Below are positions 4,062-24,868 of a DNA stretch of 64,000 nucleotides, piece by piece. The notes below the pieces were generated by a model. That model was given only the letters and a program-made list of their open reading frames with translations, did not search any database and was not told the origin of the DNA. Both the position numbers and the translations under genes were made by a program. The stretch comes from Candidatus Baldrarchaeum yapensis (GTDB taxonomy: Archaea; Asgardarchaeota; Baldrarchaeia; Baldrarchaeales; Baldrarchaeaceae), in assembly GCA_016840465.1 (NCBI GenBank), contig JAEOSH010000006.1, positions 2,886-66,885 of the forward strand, read 5' to 3'. Within the stretch, counting starts at the first letter, position 1. Each line of letters begins with the position of its first letter.

Positions 4062-7000
4062 TTAGGAAAACTTATCCTCTAATAATGCCTCAATTTCTTG
4101 GTATCTCTTCCTCAATTTCTCTATTGTTTCACTTGATGCTCTCCAATAACCCCTTGAATGAGCCTCTAATAATCTTCCGACTATCTTCTGAAACGCCCAC
4201 GGATTTTCCCTCTTTATCCTGTCGGAAACTTCTCGATCAAAGACTATTCTCTCGGCAACCTTATCCCACATCCAGTCCTGAACGCCACCTACCGTCGCTG
4301 CAAGTCCCAGTAGGTATTCCACCCTATCTGCAATCTTTGTTGACCCATTAAAGCCATGTTTGAGCATTTCATCTAGCCAACGCGGATTTAGAAGCCGCGT
4401 GGCTACGCCCCTCCTTATTGCCTCGTCGACATGCTCAACTTTCACTCTTTCTCTCGTACTATCCGCAACTAGAACTAGGGGTTTCTCACCTCTTACCTTC
4501 TCAACGCTCTTCGTCAATCCGCCTAAGAACTCATAATAGTGGTCGAGGTCGGTAATTTCGTAATCGATGCTGTCTCGAATCTGCGCAACTAGGTCCACTC
4601 TAGAGATAAGTTTATTGAAAACATCATTTGCGTCTTTCCCTCTGATGTATTCCCCGTACCCGAATCTCATACTTTCCATATATGCATTCACAAGATCCGC
4701 CTCGCTCCTCCAAGACCCGCTTTCAATGAGTGTGGTCAGCGTAGTTGCATATTCGCCCTCAGGTGGGCCGAATATCCTAATTATCGCATCCTCTCCCAAT
4801 TTCTTATCCTCGAGCGTGTGGGCCTTTACGTAATTTAACTCCGGAGGCTCATCCAAGCTTGCAACTAATTTGAACGCTCTATCAAGAAGTTCAACTATGT
4901 TGTAAAACGTGTCCCTGAAAATTCCACAAATGGTGACAAGAACGTCTATTCGAGGTCTTCCCAATTCCTCTAATGGTATTACTTCCAAGTCACGGATGTA
5001 TATCGACTTCCAGATAGGCCTCACTCCCAATAACCTGAAAATGGCGGCAACGGTCTCCCCTCCCGTCTTCATTGTCTCAAAGCCCCAAAGCACAACACTA
5101 ACAACCTTAGGATAACGGCCATACTTCTCATAATACCTCCTAATGTACTCCTCCGCAATTCGCGCACCGCGCTCCATTGCCACTTCCGTTGGTATATTCG
5201 TGGGGTCAAGCTGGAATACATTGCGCCCGGTTGGAAAGACCTCAGGCGATCGTATAGGATCCCCACCGGGTCCCGGAAGGATGTATTCTCCATTTAATGC
5301 GCGCAGTACGCCTTCAATTTCAGATGACTCTAATACTCTTTCCTTTACTGATTTGGCGTACTCCAATGATGTCCTCATCTCGTTTTTATCGACTCTTCCA
5401 AGTTTAAAACTCTTAATGAGATCGTTTAACGATCTCTGCTCAAAGACGTACATCTTGATAATGTTACGAACGACTTTTTCGATAGCATCCAAAATGTCAG
5501 AATATCTCCTTCCATCAGGTGTCATCAGAGAGGGCTTTTCAAGCAAATCATAGTAATTAAAGCCCATGGACTCAGCAATTATCCTATGGAGGCTCTTAAT
5601 GGTCCCTCTATCGTATCTTGCAACATAAGTCAGATAATCCAAGAGATCGTCCTCGGAAGGCGTCTCGCCAAGCACATGTAGTCCTTTCGGCACCAATGCT
5701 CTTTTATACTCGTAAATTCTGTCATGAATTTTGTCAATGCTATCTCCTAAACCGTATTTTCTTCCCACATCGATGATCTTTTTCGCAATCGTTGCAGCCT
5801 TCTCCTTATCGTATTGTAATGTGTCATGATATTGGTTAAGAAGCCTTTCCAGTTCCAAAATGAAATCATGAGAGCCACTCACCATAACTGGAGGACTACT
5901 ATGTCCTATAATGACCGCATAACTCCTATGCTTTGCAATGGCAGCCTCCGACGAATTGACGACATGGTAGATGTAAATGTTCGGTAGGTCCCCTAGTAGC
6001 AAATCCGGAAAACACTCTTCAGATAGCCCTGCATCCTTCCCCGGCAAAAACTCTAAGGTCCCATGAGTGCCGAAATGTACGACCGCATCTGCTCGAAACT
6101 CCTTCTCTAACCATTTATAAAACGCAATATACTGATGATGCGGCGGCAGATCTCGACTGTGGTATATTTTTGAGGGGTCCTCGTGTACACCTCTCGAAGG
6201 TTGTACTCCTATGAACACATTTCCTAAAATGATCCCCGGAATTATTATCGTGTCTTGGAACACCATTATCTTACCTGGAGGCTCTCCCCATGCCTCTAGA
6301 ACTCTTTTTCGTACATTCTCGGGCAATTCATTAAACCACTTTATGTATTTTTGCTTATCCACTTTAGGCAATCTTCGGAGCGCATCAGCTGTCTGGACCC
6401 ATTCTCCGGAATTTACTGCTCCGCTTCTCAACATCAACTCCTTTAATTCGTCTGCACTTGGAATCTTATCAATAAAGTACCCATGCTCTCTCATCGAAGA
6501 GAGCAGTTTGGATATGCTGGCAAACACGTCGAGATATGCAACCTTTCCGAGGTTTTCCTCGCCGGGCGGATAATTGAATATTATTATGGCAATTTTCTTA
6601 TCCTTGTTCGGCTTTCTCTTTAAGTGAACCCATTTTAGAACTCTTCGTGCCAATTTCCTAATTCTGTCCTCTATTGCTATGTACTCCTCAAGAACAACTC
6701 CCTCCTTCTTAAAATGAACGGGAGCATGTGTAACATGTGGTTCTATTCGCCCATCCAATTCGGGCAAAATTACCGACGTTACCATCTCTATTGGAGGAAC
6801 CCCTGCGCGGGACTCTTTCCATTTCTCTGCAGTTACCGATGATAAATGAATCCCGTGAAGAACGGGCACATTCAACTTTGTCAGCACATCAAATGTAAAT
6901 CTGTGATCCCCACCTACAGGGCCTCCCGCGAACCTGAACCAAAGCAGATCAACTAAAGCATCGATAACGGGTCTGCCATTTCTCAGAAAGTACTTCTCGA

Positions 7001-7826
7001 TCGCAAGATAATACCTCAGATCCTCACAAAAGACTGGTATTACTCCAAGTCCAAGGCGCTCAATCTCCTCGGCGAGGAGCTTAGCGGCGGGTAGAGATTG
7101 ATCATAGTGGTGCCCTCCATAAAACAATATCCCGACAAGAGGTCTATTCCCATGTCTGTACTGCTTGAGGTACTCTTCTGTTGAATCGTATATTTGGCCA
7201 GTGTGGAAGTCCTCTATCCCCATAGGCGGCATAACTTTTGGCTCCGGTATCTCAACATCTATCTTCACTTTGCCATACTCCTTTAACAATAACAGCAGCA
7301 TCGCAACGTAGTTTTCTTCTGAGGGATGCTCATGGCACTTCAATACAAATGCGAAGTTTCGAGCATGCCTAAAGATACCTATAGGAATCTTAGAACCTAA
7401 TTTCTCAAACCTCTCCCTCATTTTAACTATTTTGCCGTAATCTATCTCTCCTCTTCCGAATATTTTCCTGAGAATGGGCTTTTCTCGTAAAGACATAAAC
7501 CTGTCGAGAGAAAAACTTCCCATCCTAGTCAATCTTATCAGCTCAGGCGAGCCACCAACTAGAGTTATTATCGTTTTGTCTTTGGAATTTTTCAATGTTT
7601 CAACTAGCAATTTGCTGGTCCTATCTCCGCCTCTAACGTCAATTAACACTATATCGGCGGATAGCAACTCGTTGACCACCTTATCAGAAGAAAACGCCCC
7701 AGTCTCGATATCATATGCGTTGAAGAACGAAAAGTCCAGTTTTCCACCAGTTATTTTATTAACTTTTTTAACGGCTTCCAAAAGCGCGGGCCGAAACTGA
7801 TACCCTATCATCACAACCTTTACCAT
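4062..7826 (-). CDS. cobN: cobaltochelatase CobN / Mg-chelatase H-subunit family protein
   Basis: A single 1254-aa ORF, the size and architecture typical of CobN/ChlH. It is divergently paired with a ChlD-like AAA+/vWA gene. Confidence 0.85.
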   Translation of the reverse strand: MVKVVMIGYQFRPALLEAVKKVNKITGGKLDFSFFNAYDIETGAFSSDKVVNELLSADIVLIDVRGGDRTSKLLVETLKNSKDKTIITLVGGSPELIRLTRMGSFSLDRFMSLREKPILRKIFGRGEIDYGKIVKMRERFEKLGSKIPIGIFRHARNFAFVLKCHEHPSEENYVAMLLLLLKEYGKVKIDVEIPEPKVMPPMGIEDFHTGQIYDSTEEYLKQYRHGNRPLVGILFYGGHHYDQSLPAAKLLAEEIERLGLGVIPVFCEDLRYYLAIEKYFLRNGRPVIDALVDLLWFRFAGGPVGGDHRFTFDVLTKLNVPVLHGIHLSSVTAEKWKESRAGVPPIEMVTSVILPELDGRIEPHVTHAPVHFKKEGVVLEEYIAIEDRIRKLARRVLKWVHLKRKPNKDKKIAIIIFNYPPGEENLGKVAYLDVFASISKLLSSMREHGYFIDKIPSADELKELMLRSGAVNSGEWVQTADALRRLPKVDKQKYIKWFNELPENVRKRVLEAWGEPPGKIMVFQDTIIIPGIILGNVFIGVQPSRGVHEDPSKIYHSRDLPPHHQYIAFYKWLEKEFRADAVVHFGTHGTLEFLPGKDAGLSEECFPDLLLGDLPNIYIYHVVNSSEAAIAKHRSYAVIIGHSSPPVMVSGSHDFILELERLLNQYHDTLQYDKEKAATIAKKIIDVGRKYGLGDSIDKIHDRIYEYKRALVPKGLHVLGETPSEDDLLDYLTYVARYDRGTIKSLHRIIAESMGFNYYDLLEKPSLMTPDGRRYSDILDAIEKVVRNIIKMYVFEQRSLNDLIKSFKLGRVDKNEMRTSLEYAKSVKERVLESSEIEGVLRALNGEYILPGPGGDPIRSPEVFPTGRNVFQLDPTNIPTEVAMERGARIAEEYIRRYYEKYGRYPKVVSVVLWGFETMKTGGETVAAIFRLLGVRPIWKSIYIRDLEVIPLEELGRPRIDVLVTICGIFRDTFYNIVELLDRAFKLVASLDEPPELNYVKAHTLEDKKLGEDAIIRIFGPPEGEYATTLTTLIESGSWRSEADLVNAYMESMRFGYGEYIRGKDANDVFNKLISRVDLVAQIRDSIDYEITDLDHYYEFLGGLTKSVEKVRGEKPLVLVADSTRERVKVEHVDEAIRRGVATRLLNPRWLDEMLKHGFNGSTKIADRVEYLLGLAATVGGVQDWMWDKVAERIVFDREVSDRIKRENPWAFQKIVGRLLEAHSRGYWRASSETIEKLRKRYQEIEALLEDKFS

Positions 7827-16535: not shown

Positions 16536-17804
16536 ATGAAGATTTCTCTGCTCGAAAGAGGGAGGCAAGTGGTACTTGATCCAATAAAGACGTGTCAGGT
16601 CGTGGAGCAGAAGCTTAATAACCTGAAGATGAGGGTTAGGACACGTAGGGAAGCGGACCTTTTAGAGGCTATTCGGTTCACTCGCTCAATGAACGACGTG
16701 AGGAGGGTTATAGAGAGCGATACAAGCATAAGTAAGAGGTTCCAAGAGTACGTTCTGCCAGTCGAGCAGGTACTCTTTAAAAGGATAACGGCGGACCCTG
16801 TAAACCCGCTACCTCGAAACGTTCCGCACGTTCGATTGATTGAGAATGTGGAGGAAATACCAGTTATAGGATGCGATACCAGCGAGATAAGACCTTCTGC
16901 ACATTATCTTCCTTTATTTATGCTAATAAACGTTGGAGTATTTGCAATGGGAGCAGAAGAGGGAGAATATTTCTCAGAGAGTGATCCTCACTTTTATACG
17001 TGGGAAGAGCTGACGGCACTGCATCCTCGCAGACTGAGGACTACCCTTAGAATAGACAGTCGGCGCATAGAAGCCCAATGTGAAACTATACTATCGGTGG
17101 TGGACAGAATAAGGGAGTCTGGGAACAGCAAGAGCATCATAGTGTTACTCGATGAAACACTATCCTTAGGCTATCTCGTTGGAAGATCGGCAGAAACTAG
17201 GGAGGAAACGGTAACAGCATTACTTGAAATGATGGGAGAGTTGAAGAAAAAGAATTGCATTCCCGTGGGCGTCTTTTATACAATGAGTGCTGCGCTGACG
17301 GTATCCCTCATCCGGGGAGTTATGTGTAGGAACAAGCCCTCGTGTAGCGTATGCATAGAAGGCGCCCGTTCAGGAGGTAATATTAAAGACCTACCGTGTG
17401 AAAAGTACATGATGCGCGACGTGAAACTCGTGGACTTGCTACTCGATCCGGGATGTAGAACCTTCTGCTTTGAAGTAAAAAATGTGATAACAAGAGCCTT
17501 CTCTTATACCGTGCTTGCCTTCTACCTAAAAGTGTGGAAAAATGACGTACTGAGAGTGGAAATTCCGCAATGGGCATCTGATAAAGTTAATGAGATAGCG
17601 TCCGTAGTTTACTTGCAGTCGATAATGGGCGCAGGATATCCGTACGTGCTCGAGAGGGCTCATGAATACGCTGTTATAAGGTCAGGGGAGAGAGACTGGT
17701 TCATTTCTATGATCTCGCGCGTCCTTCGTGACATCCTCCACATCGACCTTCGGATGAGCCGCAAGGAGATAATGAAAAAGATGCTCGGTGGAGGAGTTGT
17801 ATGA
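16536..17804 (+). CDS. nurA: NurA-like 5'-3' nuclease (DSB end resection)
   Basis: 422 aa with 'IGCDTSEI' as a candidate catalytic Asp motif and a C-terminal 'GYPYVLERAHEYA' (Y…H motif). It is first in an operon with herA, mre11 and rad50, overlapping the next ORF by 4 nt. Confidence 0.6.
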   Translation: MKISLLERGRQVVLDPIKTCQVVEQKLNNLKMRVRTRREADLLEAIRFTRSMNDVRRVIESDTSISKRFQEYVLPVEQVLFKRITADPVNPLPRNVPHVRLIENVEEIPVIGCDTSEIRPSAHYLPLFMLINVGVFAMGAEEGEYFSESDPHFYTWEELTALHPRRLRTTLRIDSRRIEAQCETILSVVDRIRESGNSKSIIVLLDETLSLGYLVGRSAETREETVTALLEMMGELKKKNCIPVGVFYTMSAALTVSLIRGVMCRNKPSCSVCIEGARSGGNIKDLPCEKYMMRDVKLVDLLLDPGCRTFCFEVKNVITRAFSYTVLAFYLKVWKNDVLRVEIPQWASDKVNEIASVVYLQSIMGAGYPYVLERAHEYAVIRSGERDWFISMISRVLRDILHIDLRMSRKEIMKKMLGGGVV

Positions 17805-18457
17805 GCATTTTTGACATGTTAAGAGCCAAGTACTCCAAGCCGGAAATGGCATTCGGGGAGGTAATAGAATCTTCAACAGTGAAATTCGATGTCTGCGCAT
17901 ATGATCATGAGCATACGCCGCAACACGGCGCATTTGTTCTTGTAAATTGTGACCACATACTGGTCATGGGTGTCGTGATACACTCCGAGATGCGTGCGGC
18001 TCCCGGCCTTCCCCGAATCCCTCAGAGACTCAGAATGACCCGTGATGAACTGAGAAGACGGTATCCTGATCTCAGGGACAATATTCTTGACATTTATACG
18101 GCGGTTGTCGTGGGATATTGTTCACGATCCGGCGTCGTACAAAGTCTTCCTCCCGAGAAGCCCCGCATCCACGACCTCGCCTTCATTTTAGATAAGGATC
18201 ACATAATAGAATTTCTAAACCCACACGGCGAGTGCATTGAAATGAACTATCTCCCCCTCCTAACCGTGCCCGTTGCTGCACCCGAAGTTCCCTTCGTCAT
18301 AGAACGTCACCTCAGATTTCTTGCCGAAATCTTAGATCAAAGCTTCCGATCGGAACTATTTAGGGCGCTCTGTACATCGGTTAATGAACATTTTAAAGGT
18401 GATGCGGCAGCTATGTTGCTAAAAATAGGAAGGAAAACCCTATTGGAGGGGGTATAA
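17801..18457 (+). CDS. uncharacterised 218-aa protein inside the nurA–herA–mre11–rad50 operon
   Basis: Its start overlaps the nurA stop (ATGA) and its stop overlaps the herA start (TAATG). There are no recognisable catalytic motifs, and the N-terminus is beta-rich ('EVIESSTVKFDVCAYD…GAFVLVNCDHILVMGVVIH'). Confidence 0.5.
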   Translation: MSIFDMLRAKYSKPEMAFGEVIESSTVKFDVCAYDHEHTPQHGAFVLVNCDHILVMGVVIHSEMRAAPGLPRIPQRLRMTRDELRRRYPDLRDNILDIYTAVVVGYCSRSGVVQSLPPEKPRIHDLAFILDKDHIIEFLNPHGECIEMNYLPLLTVPVAAPEVPFVIERHLRFLAEILDQSFRSELFRALCTSVNEHFKGDAAAMLLKIGRKTLLEGV

Positions 18458-20223
18458 TGAAATTAGAGGAAGAAAAGGACCCCACATTCGCATTCGTCGT
18501 ACAAGGCTCCTTAGATAAGGGAGTTATCGCGCAGCTAAGACGCGGATATCTAAGTGAGGATGTCCAATGTTCTTCTCTTACCACGATCAAGGGACGCAAC
18601 TTTCTCTTCCTAGGGCTCATCTCAAATATCGAGGTTTCTCGAAAGAGCGTCGTAGATGAAACTGTTAGGCATGAAGGTATCGATAAAAGCGCCGATGAGG
18701 TGGAAAGAGAAGCCGTATTGCACGGGTTGATAAACACAGGTGAGGGTCGCCCAGAAATCAGAATAATACCAATAGCTGTGGCGAGGGAAATCGATGGACG
18801 AGTATGTGTGGAGGGCGCGGATACGATACCATACTACATGGCAGAGGTTAAGGTTCCCGATGAGAGCGAAATAAAGGCGTTCTACACCCCGCAAAGGGGT
18901 GAAGGATTCGTAATAGGATATCCCAAGAGCCCAATAGCAAGCCAACAGATATCATCCGGTGTGCTCATGGATCTTGAGGTGCTGGTTCGTGGGACCTTCG
19001 GAATATTCGGAAAAAGTGGGACAGGTAAAACTTTCTTGGGAAACTATCTCGCGTCTGGAATTGTACTATGGAACAAAAAGAATCTCTTCTCCAAGAAGGT
19101 AAAACTCCTAATATTTGACATGCACTCGGAATATGGAACCCAACTTTTCAGCTCCAGGGGAGATACTTACGGTCCAGGAGTTGCAAAAGCATTTCCCGAG
19201 GAGTTCCTAGTATTTTCCCCGGATCACCAATTTGCAAAGGAGCATTCTCTCGAACCCTTGCAGATAAATGCCGGGAATATAACAATAGAAGATCTGGCAG
19301 CAACAGCTGAAGCCTTAGGATTATCAGAAGCATATCTGAGCCACTTGGAAACGTTCAGGCGGATAGCAGAGGATATATTGGATAAATACCGGAGAGAAGC
19401 AAGTAACAGGGGGATTACCAACTGGTTCCAGTTCATAACATCACTCGACGACGAACTTGGTCCTTCATTAACGAATCCACTAGAAGAGAGACTGAGAAGC
19501 ATATCACCAGGTGCAAAATTCGCCTATACCAGCGGAAGGAGCAGGCTTCGGAGATTGAAGAGATACGAGTTCATAAACTGGTTCGGAACGGGAGCAGACT
19601 CAGTAGACACAATAATATCCGAGTTGCTTGATGGAAAACGCAGCGTTGTAATATCGTTTGGAAGATACGGGGATGATAGAACTGCATACATGTTCATAGC
19701 AAACATAGTTGCGCGCAGATTATGGAGAGAATGCGTCGATAGAATAATGAGCGGAAGAGAGCTCCACTACAGGGTTGTAATTTTTATAGAGGAGGCGCAC
19801 AAGTTCCTAGGACCGGATGTCTACTACATGAGCCCGTTCGGCGATATTGCTAGGGAATTGAGAAAACGCGGCGTTATTCTCTGCGTTATCGATCAAACTC
19901 CATCGCAGATATGTGATGACGTTCGTGGAATGTTATGGAACAAATTTGTGATGTGTCTCGAGAACGAAAAGGACATAGAGGCCGCATCTATAGGATTACC
20001 CTTCCCACATCTCTTTAAACCGGTAATCCAGCGCCTACAGCGGCAGGAAGTGCTCGTATTTGGCGAGGCAATAAACGTCCCGGCTGTTGTTAAGGTTCCC
20101 GAATATAAGGAGAGAATTAAGGAAATGAGAGCCCAGTATCTTGAAATAAAGGCAAAGGAAGCGGAAGAAGAAAAGGTGCGGGAAAAAGCATTCGAAGAAC
20201 TCACGGGGCTACCGGTGGGATGA
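18457..20223 (+). CDS. herA: HerA-family hexameric DNA helicase/translocase
   Basis: 588 aa with Walker A 'FGIFGKSGTGKTFL', Walker B 'VVIFIEEAHKF' and a FtsK/HerA-type ATPase core. It lies immediately upstream of mre11. Confidence 0.85.
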   Translation: MKLEEEKDPTFAFVVQGSLDKGVIAQLRRGYLSEDVQCSSLTTIKGRNFLFLGLISNIEVSRKSVVDETVRHEGIDKSADEVEREAVLHGLINTGEGRPEIRIIPIAVAREIDGRVCVEGADTIPYYMAEVKVPDESEIKAFYTPQRGEGFVIGYPKSPIASQQISSGVLMDLEVLVRGTFGIFGKSGTGKTFLGNYLASGIVLWNKKNLFSKKVKLLIFDMHSEYGTQLFSSRGDTYGPGVAKAFPEEFLVFSPDHQFAKEHSLEPLQINAGNITIEDLAATAEALGLSEAYLSHLETFRRIAEDILDKYRREASNRGITNWFQFITSLDDELGPSLTNPLEERLRSISPGAKFAYTSGRSRLRRLKRYEFINWFGTGADSVDTIISELLDGKRSVVISFGRYGDDRTAYMFIANIVARRLWRECVDRIMSGRELHYRVVIFIEEAHKFLGPDVYYMSPFGDIARELRKRGVILCVIDQTPSQICDDVRGMLWNKFVMCLENEKDIEAASIGLPFPHLFKPVIQRLQRQEVLVFGEAINVPAVVKVPEYKERIKEMRAQYLEIKAKEAEEEKVREKAFEELTGLPVG

Positions 20224-20227
20224 GTTC

Positions 20228-21457
20228 ATGGGGTTAAAGATGGTACATACCGGAGATATACATCTGGGAGCCGTAATACGTGGAATGACGTCCGGAACTG
20301 AGGTTTATAAGCGTCGAATAATGGATTTTCTCGAAAACCTGAAAAGAATCGCGGAGTTTTCCGTAAAAAATGAATGCGACTTTTTGTTGATCTCCGGGGA
20401 TATATTCCACTCTCTGCACCCCAGCGCATTCATCCTCGACGAATTCGCGAAAATTCTGAGATTTGTTTCGAATAAAGGCGTAAAGGTCGTTGCAATTCCT
20501 GGAAATCACGACATGCCAAAGACCGCAGGCGTACCGTCCTATCTTGATGCAATATTTGACGCAGGCGTACCCAACTTCTACTACTTCTCACGCGCCGGAA
20601 CGATAACTTTGAGCGGAAGAGATCCCACACGCACGGTAAAATTCATTTGCATACCATATCTTCCGCCGCAAATTGAAAGACAAAAGATGGAGGAAGCATT
20701 AGAAAGATTTGTCAAAAGAGAGGCATCTGACAGAGAAAACTCCGATTACATAGTTGTGTTATCGCACATTTTGGTACATGGTGCAATTCTAGACGCCTAC
20801 GGCAGAAGAATGAAGGAAATGGGAGATGTAGAGTTTTCCACCTCCGCCCTTCTCACGAGTGAAGTAAGCTACGTGGCCCTTGGACATGTGCATCAACACC
20901 AGGAAGTCGCAAAGAAGGTTGTATACTGCGGATCGATAGAAAGAGTCGATTTCGGTGAGGAAGAGGGAGATAAGGGTTTCTATCTAGTAGAGGAAAGGTG
21001 CGGGGATCTTGAGTACGAGTTCATAAAGCTACAAACACGGCCACTAATCACGATTCCTGGGAGAAGATCCGGAATAGGTGGTGAGTATTTGAATCTTGCG
21101 GTCAGCGATCAACCATCCCGCGCGTTGCTTGAGTTTCTGAAAAATGCAAGAATAGAATCCGAATCGATAGTCAGAATAAGGTACCTGATACGGAGTGATC
21201 AAGTGCTTAACCTCAAACCCATAGAGGAGTTCCTAGAAGAGGTAAAGAGAGTCATGCATTATATACTTGACCCGACATATATCACAATTATTAGCCATAA
21301 TGAAGTATATGAAGACATTGCGGCGAAATCCCTGAGAGAATATTTCATAGAATATATTGACGCCCAAAATTTGCCACCAGAGATAAATAAAGAGAAATTG
21401 AAGGAGTTAGGTCTTGAATACATACAAAGGAAGATAGAAGAGGAGGAATACGGATGA
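20228..21457 (+). CDS. mre11: Mre11 DNA double-strand break repair nuclease
   Basis: Calcineurin-like phosphoesterase motifs 'HTGDIHLG', 'LISGDIFH', 'IPGNHD' and 'ALGHVHQ'. It overlaps rad50 by 4 nt. Confidence 0.9.
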   Translation: MGLKMVHTGDIHLGAVIRGMTSGTEVYKRRIMDFLENLKRIAEFSVKNECDFLLISGDIFHSLHPSAFILDEFAKILRFVSNKGVKVVAIPGNHDMPKTAGVPSYLDAIFDAGVPNFYYFSRAGTITLSGRDPTRTVKFICIPYLPPQIERQKMEEALERFVKREASDRENSDYIVVLSHILVHGAILDAYGRRMKEMGDVEFSTSALLTSEVSYVALGHVHQHQEVAKKVVYCGSIERVDFGEEEGDKGFYLVEERCGDLEYEFIKLQTRPLITIPGRRSGIGGEYLNLAVSDQPSRALLEFLKNARIESESIVRIRYLIRSDQVLNLKPIEEFLEEVKRVMHYILDPTYITIISHNEVYEDIAAKSLREYFIEYIDAQNLPPEINKEKLKELGLEYIQRKIEEEEYG

Positions 21458-23946
21458 ATAGTTGGGGATTTGTGCCAGAGAAACTCATTGCCGAGAACTT
21501 CATAACTTACGATAGATTAGAACTGGATTTCACAAAACTGGGAAGAAGAGTCGCCGTACACGGTCCCACAGGTGCGGGTAAAACAACAGCATTCGTGGAT
21601 GCCCTTACTTTCGCCTTATTTGGTGCAGCATACGAGAAATCTGGAGCCCAGTTCAGGGAAAAACTTGCAAAGGAGGCCGGAAGACCGGTAAAGGTAGAGT
21701 TGACATTCAGAGTTGGGGGTGAACGGTATAAAGTTATGAGAATGATAGATAGCAACGGTAAGTACATAAGGGTTGAATTAAGGAGATTGGAAGAGGGCGC
21801 AAAGCCAATAACGTCGCTGAGAGAGGTCAATCAGAGGATAGAGAAACTACTGGGCATGAATTATAAAATATTTCTCAACACGGTCGCAGTAAGGCAGGGC
21901 AATGTTGCTGAACTCCTACATGGCCTTACACCCTCGGAGTTCAGGCAAATGCTCCTCTTAGCTTTTGGAATCGATTTCAGAAAGATACAGGATGCAGTTA
22001 AGGATGACTACAGACAGGCAGAAGTCGAATACTCGAAAATAACTTCTAGGATAGAAGACTTGCGGAAAAAAATAAAGGAGAAAGACAAGGTTTTGAGAGA
22101 CCTGAACAACCTGAGAAAGGAACTCACGAAACTAAATGAAGATATCTCAAAAGTAAGAAGCAAACTCCAAGAAGTAGAACAAAAGCTTCAGGCGGTACAT
22201 GAGAAATTATCCTCCGCACGTCAGGAGTATAAACTTATGGAAAAGGAGTATCAGAACCTCCAGGATAAAAGGAGGCACCTCGAAGAAAAAATGTCGGATA
22301 GAGAGAGGTTTATGAGGGAATTAAGCAAGTTATCCGAAATTGAGGAAGAATTGAAATTGCTAAGAGAGTCGATATCAAAACTGCGAAAAGCGACCGGAAT
22401 CCTTGCTACCATTAAGGAGAAGAGAAGAGCTCTGAGCCGATATGAAAGAGAGTTGAGGGAGTTGGAAAGAAAGGAGAAGGAACTAAATGGGCTGAGAAAA
22501 CGAATTGAAGATTTGTCATGTGAAATATCAGCTTTAGAAAGCACGGTTAAAAAGATTGAGGATATCGAAAGGAAAATAGACGAGAAAAAAGAACTAAAGA
22601 ACAAACTTAGTGGAAAGAGGGAATATCTGGAGAGAAATTTAGCTGAAATAAAGGAAATGAAACAAAGATCATCAAACGGGGCAATAAAATGTCCGCTTTG
22701 TCTCTCCGAATTGTCCCCACAGAAAGTTGAGGAGGTCATGAGAAGCATAACTCATACACTCACGGAACTAAGAAACCAATTGGAATCGATAAGCAGAGAA
22801 TTAGAAGAGCTATCTAGAGAGCGCGAAACTGTTAAGAAAGCTGAGGAAAAGCTAAATACGCTGTACAAAATGCTTATGAGATACGAGGGGCAAGCAAAGT
22901 CTCTTAGCGAATTTGTAAAAAAGAAGGTTGATTTGCAGGGCGAAAGGGAAAAATGTGGACAGGAATTAAAGAAAATGGAGGAAGAACTCTCGAAACTTAT
23001 AGAGGGGATATGCTCTTACGATGAGGTCGAACAAAAGCTTGCAGAATTAGAAGCAAAGGAGCGGGCTCTCGAAGAGAAAGTCAGAAAGATAGCGGAAAGC
23101 AGAGGAAGAATATCAGAGTTGGAAAAGGAGATAGAGAGGTTAAAAAACGAGATTAGAGAATTGGAGCCTCTAATTTCAGAAGAAATGCTGAGAAGAAAGA
23201 AGATCGAGTTAGATGAATTAATGAAAATGGAAGATGAGTTAAAAAGGCGCAAAAAGGAAATAGAGTCAGAACTCGAGGGCCTGCAGGACAGAATGATAAA
23301 GGTCAGCGCGGACGTTAAAGCACTCGAAAGTAAGTTGAAAGAAATAAAAGATGCCGAAAATGAAATAAAAAGTCTCGAAATAGAGGAAAGAAAAGCACGA
23401 GAAAAACTCATTATGCTCAAAGTATTAAAGGAGAAGGTATTTCATGATCAAGGATTCCCGATGTTCCTACTAAGTCGCTTCATTACTAGACTTCAGGATT
23501 ACGCGAACTATTACCTCAGTAGCATTCTTCCAAATTATCAGATCCGCCTCAAGAGGGTAAAAGAGGGAAGACAAGAGAAAATAAGAGCAACGGTCATGGA
23601 TATTTCAAGGGGATATGATCGCCCGTTATATACATACTCCGGCGGTGAAACCGCGATCCTGGGATTTGTACTGAGATTAGCACTAGCAAAAACATTACTA
23701 GAGGTAAAAGGTGCTAAATCGCCGAGAATTCTGATTTTAGATGAGGGATTTAGCTCTGCTAGCGAGGAATATCGTGCCCAATTGATGAAGTTATTAGCAA
23801 CGCTATCCCAAGAGTTCGAAAATATTATTGTCATTTCACACGTTCCTGACATAAAGTTCAGCGAAATATTCGATAGAATTCTCGAAGTTCAGAGAGACAG
23901 AAGTGGAAGTCGCATAAGGGACGTCACCACATCGGTGAAATCGTAG
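21454..23946 (+). CDS. rad50: Rad50 ATPase (SMC-like, with zinc-hook)
   Basis: N-terminal Walker A '[10 protein letters not shown]', a long heptad-rich coiled coil with a central 'CPLC' zinc hook (about 22689-22700), and C-terminal signature/Walker B '[11 protein letters not shown]…LILDEGF'. Confidence 0.9.
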
Positions 23947-24005: not shown

Positions 24006-24868
24006 TTGGAGCAACTAGGAAAAGTCATTAAGGGAAAGCAATATAAGGAATATGCAAAGCATCTGGTGGCAGGCATGAACGAGGATGAACTGTCAGAAAA
24101 GATATTTTCTGCGGCAAAGATAATAGTTAAATCAAAGAGAGTTGTTGCGCTCACTGGCGCGGGGATATCCGTTGAGAGCGGGATTCCTGATTTTAGGGGT
24201 CCTGTTGGACTCTGGAGAGTTTGCAACCCGATATAGCATCCATACACTATTTTCTCCCAAACCCCGAAGGATTTTGGAAAATGGCCAAAAGCTTGGCAAA
24301 AACCCTCTTTAACGCAAAGCCCAATCCCGCGCACATAGCTCTCGCCGAACTAGAGAAAATGGGAAAGCTTCGATGCATAATAACTCAGAACATAGATTCT
24401 CTTCACCAAAAAGCCGGAAGTAAAAATGTCATAGAAATTCATGGAACTGCTCGAACGGCCACTTGCCTCAGTTGCGGGAAAAAGTTTCGGGATGCGGACA
24501 TACTGAAAATGCTGGATGAAGGGCTCTTGGTTCCGGTTTGCGACAGATGCGGAGGGTTGATAAAAGTAGATGCAGTCTTCTTTGGTGAAAATCTCCCTCG
24601 GGACGCCCTTTCAAGGGCCATGGATGAAAGCATACATTGTGACGCAATGTTAGTCGTGGGTTCTTCTTTAGTCGTTTATCCGGCGGCATATATATCTTCC
24701 TCAATTGGCAAAGGAGCACGGGCAAACATAATTGTGGTGAACTTAGAGCCTACATGGTTCGATAGAATTGCGGATGTTGTAATACATGGTAAGGCCGGAG
24801 AAATCCTGCCCGAGCTCGTTGCAAAAGTCAAAGAGTTGTTGCTATCGGATAATAGCAACACAAGATGA
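24006..24868 (+). pseudogene. Sir2-family NAD-dependent protein deacylase (CobB-like), split by a frameshift near 24220-24240
   Basis: The 24006-24236 ORF has '[24 protein letters not shown]'. A different frame, 24221-24868, continues 'PNPAHIALAELEKMG…IITQNIDSLHQKAGS…IEIHG…CLSCGKKF…CDRCGG'. The whole is colinear with the intact paralog at 54643-55449. Confidence 0.6.

What the first reader, a model, noticed from the sequence alone, without database searches (positions are those of the whole stretch)
17801..18457. Uncharacterised 218-aa ORF inserted between nurA and herA in a translationally coupled nurA–X–herA–mre11–rad50 operon
All five genes overlap at their start and stop codons (ATGA or TAATG junctions). 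Expression of X is therefore stoichiometrically tied to the end-resection machinery. X has no nuclease or ATPase motifs. Its N-terminus is β-rich ('EVIESSTVKFDVCAYD…GAFVLVNCDHILVMGVVIHSE') and loosely resembles the N-terminal barrel of HerA. An ATPase-less HAS-barrel-like domain is therefore speculative but possible. Either way, this is an unannotated fifth component of the archaeal double-strand-break resection complex in this lineage.
Basis: partly seen in the sequence, partly recalled or inferred. Interest (0 to 1): 0.65.

Follow-up and report, generated by a model that had tools for sequence, protein, structure and literature searches.

The report
Stand-alone HerA barrel protein beside HerA
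The unnamed gene between nurA and herA encodes a real, conserved protein. It is a free-standing copy of HerA's N-terminal barrel domain plus a small helical domain, and it travels with one branch of HerA DNA motors in Asgard and other archaea and in Chloroflexi bacteria, so it is a probable undescribed accessory subunit of the DNA-end resection machine.

Summary
ORF X (17801-18457, +, 218 aa) is real. Against an 85%-identical relative, 120 codon changes are synonymous and 32 are not. It overlaps nurA (ATGA) and herA (TAATG), each start preceded by GGAGG. The claim that all five genes overlap is wrong: herA and mre11 are separated by 4 nt.

The organism is a Baldrarchaeia (Asgard) archaeon, not Thermoplasmata.

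X has no Pfam or NCBIfam hit of its own, but 14 of 40 relatives hit Pfam HAS-barrel. Its AlphaFold model (pLDDT 96) matches only the HerA N-terminal domain in the PDB. Profile comparison aligns X 15-150 with its own HerA 8-155. HerA keeps its own barrel, so X is an extra paralogue, not a split gene. X also carries a family-specific C-terminal helical domain and has no ATPase or nuclease motifs.

NurA-X-HerA recurs in eight archaeal loci, including Njord-, Hod- and Promethearchaeota. X-HerA without NurA recurs in 29 Dehalococcoidia/SAR202 genomes. A Dependentiae branch sits beside rnhB with no HerA nearby.

Best reading: X is a HerA-binding accessory subunit acting at the barrel collar where NurA docks. 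Binding is inferred, not shown. I found no published description.

The parts
16536..17804 (+). nurA (422 aa), divergent NurA nuclease. Its stop overlaps the X start (ATGA).
   Evidence: Pfam NurA 2.3e-8. Homologous NurA lies directly upstream of X in L003, L048, L049, L053, L054 and L055.
17790..17794 (+). GGAGG Shine-Dalgarno-like motif 6 nt upstream of the X start codon, inside the end of nurA.
   Evidence: Read directly from the sequence. The motif is conserved in L001.
17801..18457 (+). Gene X (218 aa): stand-alone HAS-barrel protein with a C-terminal helical domain.
   Evidence: ORF. Purifying selection. 93 family representatives. AF2 model with pLDDT 96.1 and pTM 0.91.
17855..18187 (+). 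HAS-barrel domain of X (residues ~19-129). Strands are 19-24, 28-33, 45-49, 54-66, 95-108, 111-113 and 126-129. A conserved helical insert spans 81-94 (TREEL..YPDL). H124 is invariant (P..P.IHDL); G19, E20, G105 and P117 are nearly invariant.
   Evidence: Alignment A2. Model. All top-50 Foldseek PDB matches are HerA, E down to 1.7e-6. hhalign to the cognate HerA N-domain gives probability 84-91%, E 1e-6 to 8e-6.
18194..18445 (+). C-terminal helical domain of X (residues ~132-215; long helices 160-177, 180-197, 200-215). It is family-specific, with no detectable relative.
   Evidence: Model. No PDB sequence hit. No similarity to the HerA helix bundle (hhalign probability 0.4%). The PDB fold matches span only about 122-150 alignment columns.
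18446..18450 (+). GGAGG Shine-Dalgarno-like motif 6 nt upstream of the herA start, inside the end of X.
   Evidence: Read directly from the sequence.
18457..20223 (+). herA (588 aa), a divergent HerA-clade ATPase with its own N-terminal HAS-barrel. Walker A GKSGTGKT starts at residue 185.
   Evidence: Pfam DUF87 1.8e-20. Walker A position. Its N-domain aligns to X. The Chloroflexi orthologue hits Pfam HAS-barrel at 1.3e-6.
20228..21457 (+). mre11 (409 aa). It starts 4 nt after the herA stop, with no overlap.
   Evidence: Metallophos 9.7e-15 and SbcD/Mre11 NCBIfam hits. Junction read.
21454..23946 (+). rad50 (830 aa). It overlaps mre11 by ATGA.
   Evidence: AAA_23, SbcC_Walker_B, Rad50 zinc hook and NCBIfam Rad50 hits. 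Junction read.

Best explanation
X is a genuine, conserved, non-catalytic accessory protein of one clade of HerA DNA translocases. It has two parts:
- a free-standing copy of the HerA N-terminal HAS-barrel (residues ~15-130), paralogous to the barrel that its own HerA still carries;
- a family-specific helical domain (residues ~132-215).

It is translated in tandem with HerA. It most likely works by protein-protein contact with the barrel collar of the HerA hexamer. That collar is where HerA subunits contact each other laterally and where NurA docks, and the D. radiodurans cryo-EM paper calls it the putative substrate exit. In the archaeal nurA-X-herA(-mre11-rad50) operons, X would therefore sit at or beside the HerA-NurA interface. 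There it would act as an adaptor or regulator of assembly and of hand-over of DNA to the nuclease during 5' end resection.

Shown here: the gene is real and under purifying selection; the fold; homology to the HerA N-domain; absence of catalytic motifs; a mildly acidic character; and tight, conserved synteny with HerA in two domains of life.

Inferred, not shown: physical binding to HerA; the oligomeric state (ring or 1:1); and any effect on resection.
For: The gene is real.
- Searches give the ORF and the junctions.
- 120 synonymous against 32 non-synonymous codon changes versus L001.
- 93 representatives.

Fold and homology.
- 14 of 40 members hit PF09378, best E 3.8e-7.
- pLDDT 96.1, pTM 0.91.
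- all top-50 PDB matches are HerA, including HerA-NurA 9x1l/9x1m and S. solfataricus HerA 4d2i.
- X 15-150 aligns to HerA 8-155, probability 84-91%.
- the X HMM also hits the HerA ORFs of L003 (2.7e-6) and L004.

X is not a split gene.
- The cognate HerA retains a barrel.

Synteny.
- NurA-X-HerA is seen in the window, L001, L003, L048, L049, L053, L054 and L055.
- X lies directly upstream of HerA in all 29 Dehalococcoidia/SAR202 loci. Where the herA start is clear, the overlap is 4 nt.
- X is absent from the more distant NurA-HerA loci of Methanocellales and Thermoproteota.

Basis for the docking logic.
- The HAS-barrel of HerA mediates NurA binding (PMC9960219).
- HAS domains contact the same domain of neighbouring subunits and bind DUF4297 (PMC11291478).

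X is unlikely to bind DNA directly.
- Family pI is mostly 5-6.5.

X is not a defence or phage family.
-.
Against: - No direct evidence of binding.
- The largest branch of the wider family (Dependentiae/TM6/Babeliales) sits in a conserved rnhB-Xlike-ftsY arrangement next to a divergent LexA-like gene, with no HerA within 5-6 kb. HerA adjacency is therefore not universal for the family.
- In Chloroflexi there is no NurA, Mre11 or Rad50 within 6 kb. A role specifically at the NurA interface cannot be the family's common function.
- In a rough NJ tree, X-less Methanocellales HerA nests among X-linked HerAs. Either X is dispensable and can be lost, or the tree is unresolved.
Confidence: 0.7

Rival explanations
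1. X is a mimic or decoy regulator rather than a structural adaptor. Because it looks like a HerA barrel, it would bind NurA, or unassembled HerA protomers, in place of a neighbouring HerA barrel. That would hold the nuclease-motor complex inactive until DNA damage.
For: - X is paralogous to the exact domain that NurA binds and that makes lateral ring contacts.
- X is mildly acidic. The HerA face that meets the basic NurA face is described as negatively charged in bacterial NurA-HerA (PMC9960219).
- One contig has NurA next to X with no detectable HerA downstream (L056).
Against: - Chloroflexi keep X-HerA with no NurA nearby, so NurA cannot be the universal target.
- L056 is a 2x-coverage long-read contig with an evidently frameshifted nurA.
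- Nothing here distinguishes inhibition from activation.
Confidence: 0.18
2. X acts independently of HerA as a small-barrel DNA-repair factor of its own, for example as an oligomeric ring acting on nucleic acid or another partner. Under this reading its position next to herA reflects co-regulation only.
For: - The Dependentiae branch is encoded beside RNase HII and a divergent LexA-like repressor, with no HerA in the fetched 5-6 kb flanks.
Against: - 37 independent loci in two domains keep X immediately upstream of HerA, with overlapping or near-overlapping stop and start codons.
- X is specifically paralogous to the HerA N-domain.
- Its pI of 5-6.5 argues against direct nucleic-acid binding.
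- HerA could still be encoded elsewhere in Dependentiae genomes; this was not testable here.
Confidence: 0.1
3. X is not a separate functional gene. It would be a spurious ORF, a lineage-specific insertion, or the N-terminal part of herA cut off by a frameshift.
For: - X has no Pfam or NCBIfam hit of its own.
- It is homologous to the HerA N-terminus.
Against: - There is a strong excess of synonymous changes.
- The family has 93 representatives and 369 profile hits.
- The two-domain model is confident.
- The downstream HerA has a complete barrel of its own.
- The two-gene arrangement is conserved from Asgard archaea to Chloroflexi.
Confidence: 0.01

Closest known systems
N-terminal HAS-barrel domain of HerA (Pfam PF09378), as seen in S. 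solfataricus HerA 4D2I, T. kodakarensis HerA-NurA 9X1L/9X1M and the defence HerAs of Sir2-HerA and DUF4297-HerA
   Same: - Same fold: every one of the top 50 PDB matches is this domain.
- Detectable sequence homology through family members and profiles.
- Like its own HerA's N-domain, X has extra sequence in the middle of the barrel: a helical insert at X 81-94.
   Different: - X is a separate 218-aa polypeptide with no RecA/ATPase core, no helix bundle and no C-terminal brace.
- It carries an unrelated C-terminal helical domain.
- It has family-specific conserved motifs (GEV, TREEL..YPDL, PP..P.IHDL) not shared with HerA.
Canonical archaeal nurA-herA-mre11-rad50 end-resection operon (Sulfolobus, Pyrococcus/Thermococcus) and bacterial NurA-HerA (Deinococcus)
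   Same: - The same four genes, tightly packed on one strand.
- Direct docking of NurA on the HerA HAS-barrel ring is the established mechanism (PMC9960219).
   Different: - A fifth gene is inserted between nurA and herA.
- The X-less NurA-HerA loci of Methanocellales and Thermoproteota that I fetched have no such gene.
- I found no paper describing a fifth gene in the model-organism operons; the operons themselves were not re-examined here.
- The HerA here is a divergent clade: NCBIfam HerA equivalogs score 35-44 bits against cut-offs of 800-970.
Two-component HerA defence systems (Sir2-HerA, DUF4297-HerA)
   Same: - A partner protein encoded next to HerA, which in the solved complexes assembles on the HAS-domain face of the hexamer (PMC11291478; PMC11514289).
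   Different: - X has no effector domain and no PADLOC hit.
- Its neighbours are repair or housekeeping genes, not defence islands.
- Its partner-like module is itself a HerA barrel.
N-terminal beta-barrel crown of F1/V1/A1-ATPase subunits (my own knowledge of why the domain is called HerA-ATP Synthase barrel)
   Same: - The same barrel superfamily, forming a ring collar above a hexameric P-loop motor. Related but distinct barrels can share one collar.
   Different: - In rotary ATPases every barrel is fused to a nucleotide-binding domain. No free barrel subunit is known to me.
- This comparison is recalled, not tested here.

Membership tests
HAS-barrel domain (Pfam PF09378) | Sequence match to the PF09378 profile at or above its gathering score (25.2 bits) | tested here: inconclusive
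   X itself gives no hit at E<=1. 14 of 40 aligned family members do hit, best E 3.8e-7. Many profile hits carry a precomputed PF09378. Membership therefore holds by transitive homology, not by direct score.
HAS-barrel domain (Pfam PF09378) | Small beta-barrel fold superposable on the N-terminal domain of solved HerA structures | tested here: met
   The AF2 model has pLDDT 96.1. All top-50 Foldseek PDB matches are HerA chains, with about 122-150 aligned columns and E from 1.7e-6 to 1.4e-4.
HAS-barrel domain (Pfam PF09378) | Profile-profile homology to a bona fide HerA N-domain | tested here: met
   hhalign of the X family against the cognate HerA clade aligns X 15-150 to HerA 8-155, probability 83.9%, E 7.8e-6. 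The first half alone gives probability 90.6%, E 1.3e-6.
HerA/FtsK-type ATPase | RecA-like core with Walker A and Walker B motifs (Pfam DUF87/HerA central domain) | tested here: not met
   X has no DUF87 or AAA hit and no GxxxxGK[ST] motif in its sequence. X ends after a helical domain at residue 218. X is not a HerA.
NurA nuclease | NurA (RNase H-like) domain | tested here: not met
   No NurA hit for X in Pfam or NCBIfam. My NurA HMM hits only the upstream gene.
NurA-HerA(-Mre11-Rad50) end-resection system | Encoded within the operon, co-oriented and tightly coupled to the core genes in several lineages | tested here: met
   NurA-X-HerA is seen in eight archaeal loci. Mre11-Rad50 follow directly in the window and in Njordarchaeum L003.
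NurA-HerA(-Mre11-Rad50) end-resection system | Physical subunit of the complex and an effect on resection | not testable with these tools
No experimental data were found in the searchable literature.
Anti-phage HerA systems (PADLOC) or phage proteins (PHROGs) | Match of X to a defence or phage family model | tested here: not met
   No PADLOC hit. No PHROGs hit. No significant BFVD fold match.

The most novel reading that the evidence does not exclude
X assembles into its own ATPase-less barrel ring, or intercalates barrel-to-barrel, on top of the HerA hexamer. The result would be a two-tier HAS collar that gates the DNA channel and re-specifies which partner (NurA in archaea, something else in Chloroflexi) can dock. 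That would be a new architectural class of FtsK/HerA motor, and a fifth core subunit of the double-strand-break resection machine in Asgard archaea.
Probability: 0.25. Interest if true: 0.7.

Novelty: new variant of a known kind. Interest (0 to 1): 0.55.

Why it matters
HerA-NurA with Mre11-Rad50 is the archaeal route to resected DNA ends, and it has been studied as a four-protein system. A conserved fifth gene wedged between nurA and herA appears in several Asgard lineages, the closest prokaryotic relatives of eukaryotes. A conserved X-HerA pair also appears in abundant marine Chloroflexi. Together these say that one whole branch of HerA motors works with an extra subunit that biochemical models do not include.

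Because X is a copy of the very domain through which HerA binds its partners, it gives a concrete, testable handle on how HerA motors choose and control partners. The practical consequence is that reconstitutions of Asgard or Chloroflexi HerA without X may be incomplete.

Tried and rejected
- **Direct family searches of X.** Pfam, NCBIfam, PADLOC, PHROGs and PDB sequence searches gave nothing. A PDB search with the family profile gave only noise.
- **BLASTP of X against its HerA.** Not significant. A weak X 111-192 to HerA 241-322 alignment suggested that the X C-domain might be the HerA helix bundle. I rejected this after hhalign gave probability 0.4%.
- **Split-gene idea.** Rejected, because HerA has its own barrel.
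- **Apparent NurA-X fusion (P0066) as Rosetta-stone evidence.** Discounted. Its contig is a 2x long-read assembly in which nurA is split across ORFs.
- **P0084.** This is a repetitive spurious hit.
- **Iyer et al. 2004.** The paper that defined the HAS-barrel is not held in the library. I could not check whether stand-alone barrels were mentioned there.
- **Literature searches.** None found a description of such a partner.
Full report
**1. What is in the sequence**

The window carries five co-oriented genes on the + strand:

| Gene | Coordinates |
|---|---|
| nurA | 16536..17804 |
| X | 17801..18457 |
| herA | 18457..20223 |
| mre11 | 20228..21457 |
| rad50 | 21454..23946 |

- The identities of the four flanking genes hold. 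Pfam gives NurA 2.3e-8, DUF87 ('Helicase HerA, central domain') 1.8e-20 and Metallophos 9.7e-15. NCBIfam gives SbcD/Mre11 and Rad50/SbcC hits.
- All of them fall far below the NCBIfam equivalog cut-offs, so the set is divergent.
- nurA/X share ATGA, X/herA share TAATG, and mre11/rad50 share ATGA.
- herA and mre11 do not overlap. herA stops at 20221-20223 and mre11 starts at 20228.
- A GGAGG lies 6 nt upstream of both the X start and the herA start.
- X is deposited as 'hypothetical protein ACTSXJ_05210 [Candidatus Baldrarchaeia archaeon]'. Baldrarchaeia is an Asgard lineage, not Thermoplasmata.
- The same locus is present in three independent assemblies.

**2. X is a real gene**

- A homologue with 85% amino-acid identity sits in the same nurA-X-herA arrangement on another contig (L001).
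- At the DNA level the two are 72% identical. 140 of the 186 differences are at third codon positions, and 120 codon changes are synonymous against 32 non-synonymous.
- An exhaustive phmmer search of 1.84 billion representatives finds 93 proteins at E<=1e-3, almost all 190-230 aa.
- A family profile finds 369 proteins in the 90%-identity clustered collection.

**3. What X is**

- X has no hit of its own in Pfam, NCBIfam, PADLOC, PHROGs or PDB sequences.
- The family alignment (A2) shows a clear signature:
  - GEV..S at the first strand;
  - a conserved TREEL..YPDL segment;
  - VGY;
  - PP..P.IHDL, with H124 invariant;
  - G19, E20, G105 and P117 nearly invariant.
- 14 of the 40 aligned members hit Pfam HAS-barrel (PF09378), best E 3.8e-7. 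About a third of the listed profile hits carry a precomputed PF09378, and one is named 'HAS barrel domain' by JGI.
- AlphaFold2 with this alignment gives a very confident model: pLDDT 96.1, pTM 0.91. It shows a beta-barrel (strands between residues 19 and 129, with a helical insert at 81-94), followed by a helical domain at 132-215.
- Foldseek against the PDB returns only HerA chains in the top 50. These include S. solfataricus HerA 4D2I, T. kodakarensis HerA-NurA 9X1L/9X1M, Sir2-HerA and DUF4297-HerA. E-values reach 1.7e-6, and the alignments span about 122-150 columns, far less than the 218-residue query.
- Profile-profile comparison aligns X 15-150 with residues 8-155 of its own HerA clade: probability 84%, E 7.8e-6. 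The first half alone gives probability 91%. The X HMM even picks up two HerA ORFs directly.
- The cognate HerA therefore keeps its own barrel. The Chloroflexi orthologue also hits PF09378 at 1.3e-6. X is an additional paralogue, not a detached piece of herA.
- The C-terminal helical domain matches nothing, including the HerA helix bundle.
- X has no Walker motif, and the family is mildly acidic, with pI mostly 5-6.5. That argues against a DNA-binding role.

**4. Where X occurs**

| Lineage | Loci | Arrangement |
|---|---|---|
| Archaea | window (Baldrarchaeia), L001, Njordarchaeum L003, L048, L049, L053, Promethearchaeota MAG L054, Hodarchaeota MAG L055 | nurA-X-herA; mre11-rad50 follow in the window and L003 |
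| Archaea | L002 ('crenarchaeote SCGC AAA261-N23') | contig starts at X, then herA |
| Dehalococcoidia/SAR202 | all 29 genomes recovered with the HerA query | X directly upstream of herA (4-nt overlap where the herA start is clear); no NurA, Mre11 or Rad50 within 6 kb; neighbours are fur and panC |
| Methanocellales, Thermoproteota | more distant HerA loci | nurA-herA with no X; Walker A is about 20 residues closer to the HerA N-terminus in Methanocellales |
| Dependentiae/TM6/Babeliales | a large branch of the family | rnhB-Xlike-ftsY beside a divergent LexA-like gene; no HerA in the fetched flanks |

A rough, unbootstrapped NJ tree of the ATPase region has two features:
- It places Chloroflexi HerA with Hod-, Prometh- and Njordarchaeal HerA, suggesting inter-domain transfer of the X-herA pair.
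- It nests X-less Methanocellales HerA among X-linked ones.

**5. How it most likely works**

From the literature:
- The HAS-barrel ring of HerA is the face that binds NurA, and the D. radiodurans study describes it as the putative substrate exit (PMC9960219).
- HAS domains contact the HAS domains of neighbouring subunits, and DUF4297 docks on them (PMC11291478).
- In the S. aureus Sir2-HerA complex a loop of the HerA beta-barrel domain inserts into the Sir2 ring (PMC11514289).

A free, non-catalytic, acidic copy of that barrel is translated just ahead of HerA and kept next to it in two domains of life. It is most economically explained as a HerA-binding accessory subunit acting at this collar, either as an extra ring or adaptor, or as a barrel-mimicking regulator. 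In the archaeal operons that would place it at the HerA-NurA junction.

This step is inference. I also found no experimental work on such a protein. The Dependentiae branch and the NurA-less Chloroflexi pairs show that the family's common denominator is not NurA and may not always be HerA.

**6. Comparison with what is known, and novelty**

- At the domain level X belongs with the HAS-barrel superfamily. The fold and profile tests are met. The direct Pfam score is not met by X itself.
- X is not a HerA (no ATPase core) and not a NurA.
- The operon is a variant of the classical nurA-herA-mre11-rad50 system with a fifth gene.
- I found no paper describing a stand-alone HAS-barrel partner of HerA. 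Databases label these proteins hypothetical, or at most 'HAS barrel domain'.
- I therefore rate it a new variant of a known kind, of moderate-to-good interest (0.55). It is a clear, testable gap in the model of archaeal end resection, especially in Asgard archaea, but its mechanism is so far only inferred.

Noticed in passing
window 24006-24868 (+): A SIR2-family deacetylase gene just downstream of rad50 is split into two overlapping ORFs (24006..24236 and 24221..24868). The break falls right after the conserved [11 protein letters not shown] motif. The same split is called in three independent assemblies (L045-L047). It may be a real frameshift or pseudogene, or a recoding site.
   Followed up: partly
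L043, L044, L050, L051, L052 (Dependentiae/TM6-type contigs): The largest branch of the X family is not next to HerA. It sits in a conserved rnhB - Xlike - ftsY arrangement, divergent from a LexA-like (HTH + Peptidase_S24) gene. This hints at an SOS/repair link without an adjacent motor.
   Followed up: partly
L004-L029, L031, L036 (Dehalococcoidia/SAR202), around 5300-7700 in each locus: The X-herA pair is conserved with no nurA, mre11 or rad50 within 6 kb. In the one locus checked with Pfam (L025) it is flanked by fur and panC. In a rough NJ tree these bacterial HerAs group with Hod-, Prometh- and Njordarchaeal HerAs, suggesting inter-domain transfer of the pair.
   Followed up: partly
L056 3450-5167 (protein P0066): An apparent NurA + HAS-barrel fusion protein. 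The contig is a 2x-coverage long-read assembly with nurA split over two ORFs, so the fusion is probably a frameshift artefact. No HerA was detectable downstream.
   Followed up: yes
protein P0031 (284 aa): A family member whose barrel is followed by a long hydrophobic C-terminal region instead of the usual helical domain. It may be a membrane-anchored variant.
   Followed up: no
window 20220-20223: An ATGA lies at the herA stop but is out of frame with mre11. It opens only a 5-codon ORF. The real mre11 ATG is at 20228, and a second in-frame ATG at 20240 begins a more typical Mre11 N-terminus (MVHTGDIHLG).
   Followed up: yes
L030, L032-L035 (Methanocellales/Halobacteriota): In L030 the gene order is mre11-rad50-nurA-herA, and none of these loci has X. 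Their HerA is as similar to the window HerA in the ATPase region (about 30%) as the Chloroflexi HerAs are, but tblastn matches begin only at about window-HerA residue 111, and Walker A lies at residue 165 instead of about 185.
   Followed up: partly
window 16536 vs L047 8769: One of the three assemblies calls nurA 11 codons shorter (411 vs 422 aa), so the nurA start codon is uncertain.
   Followed up: no
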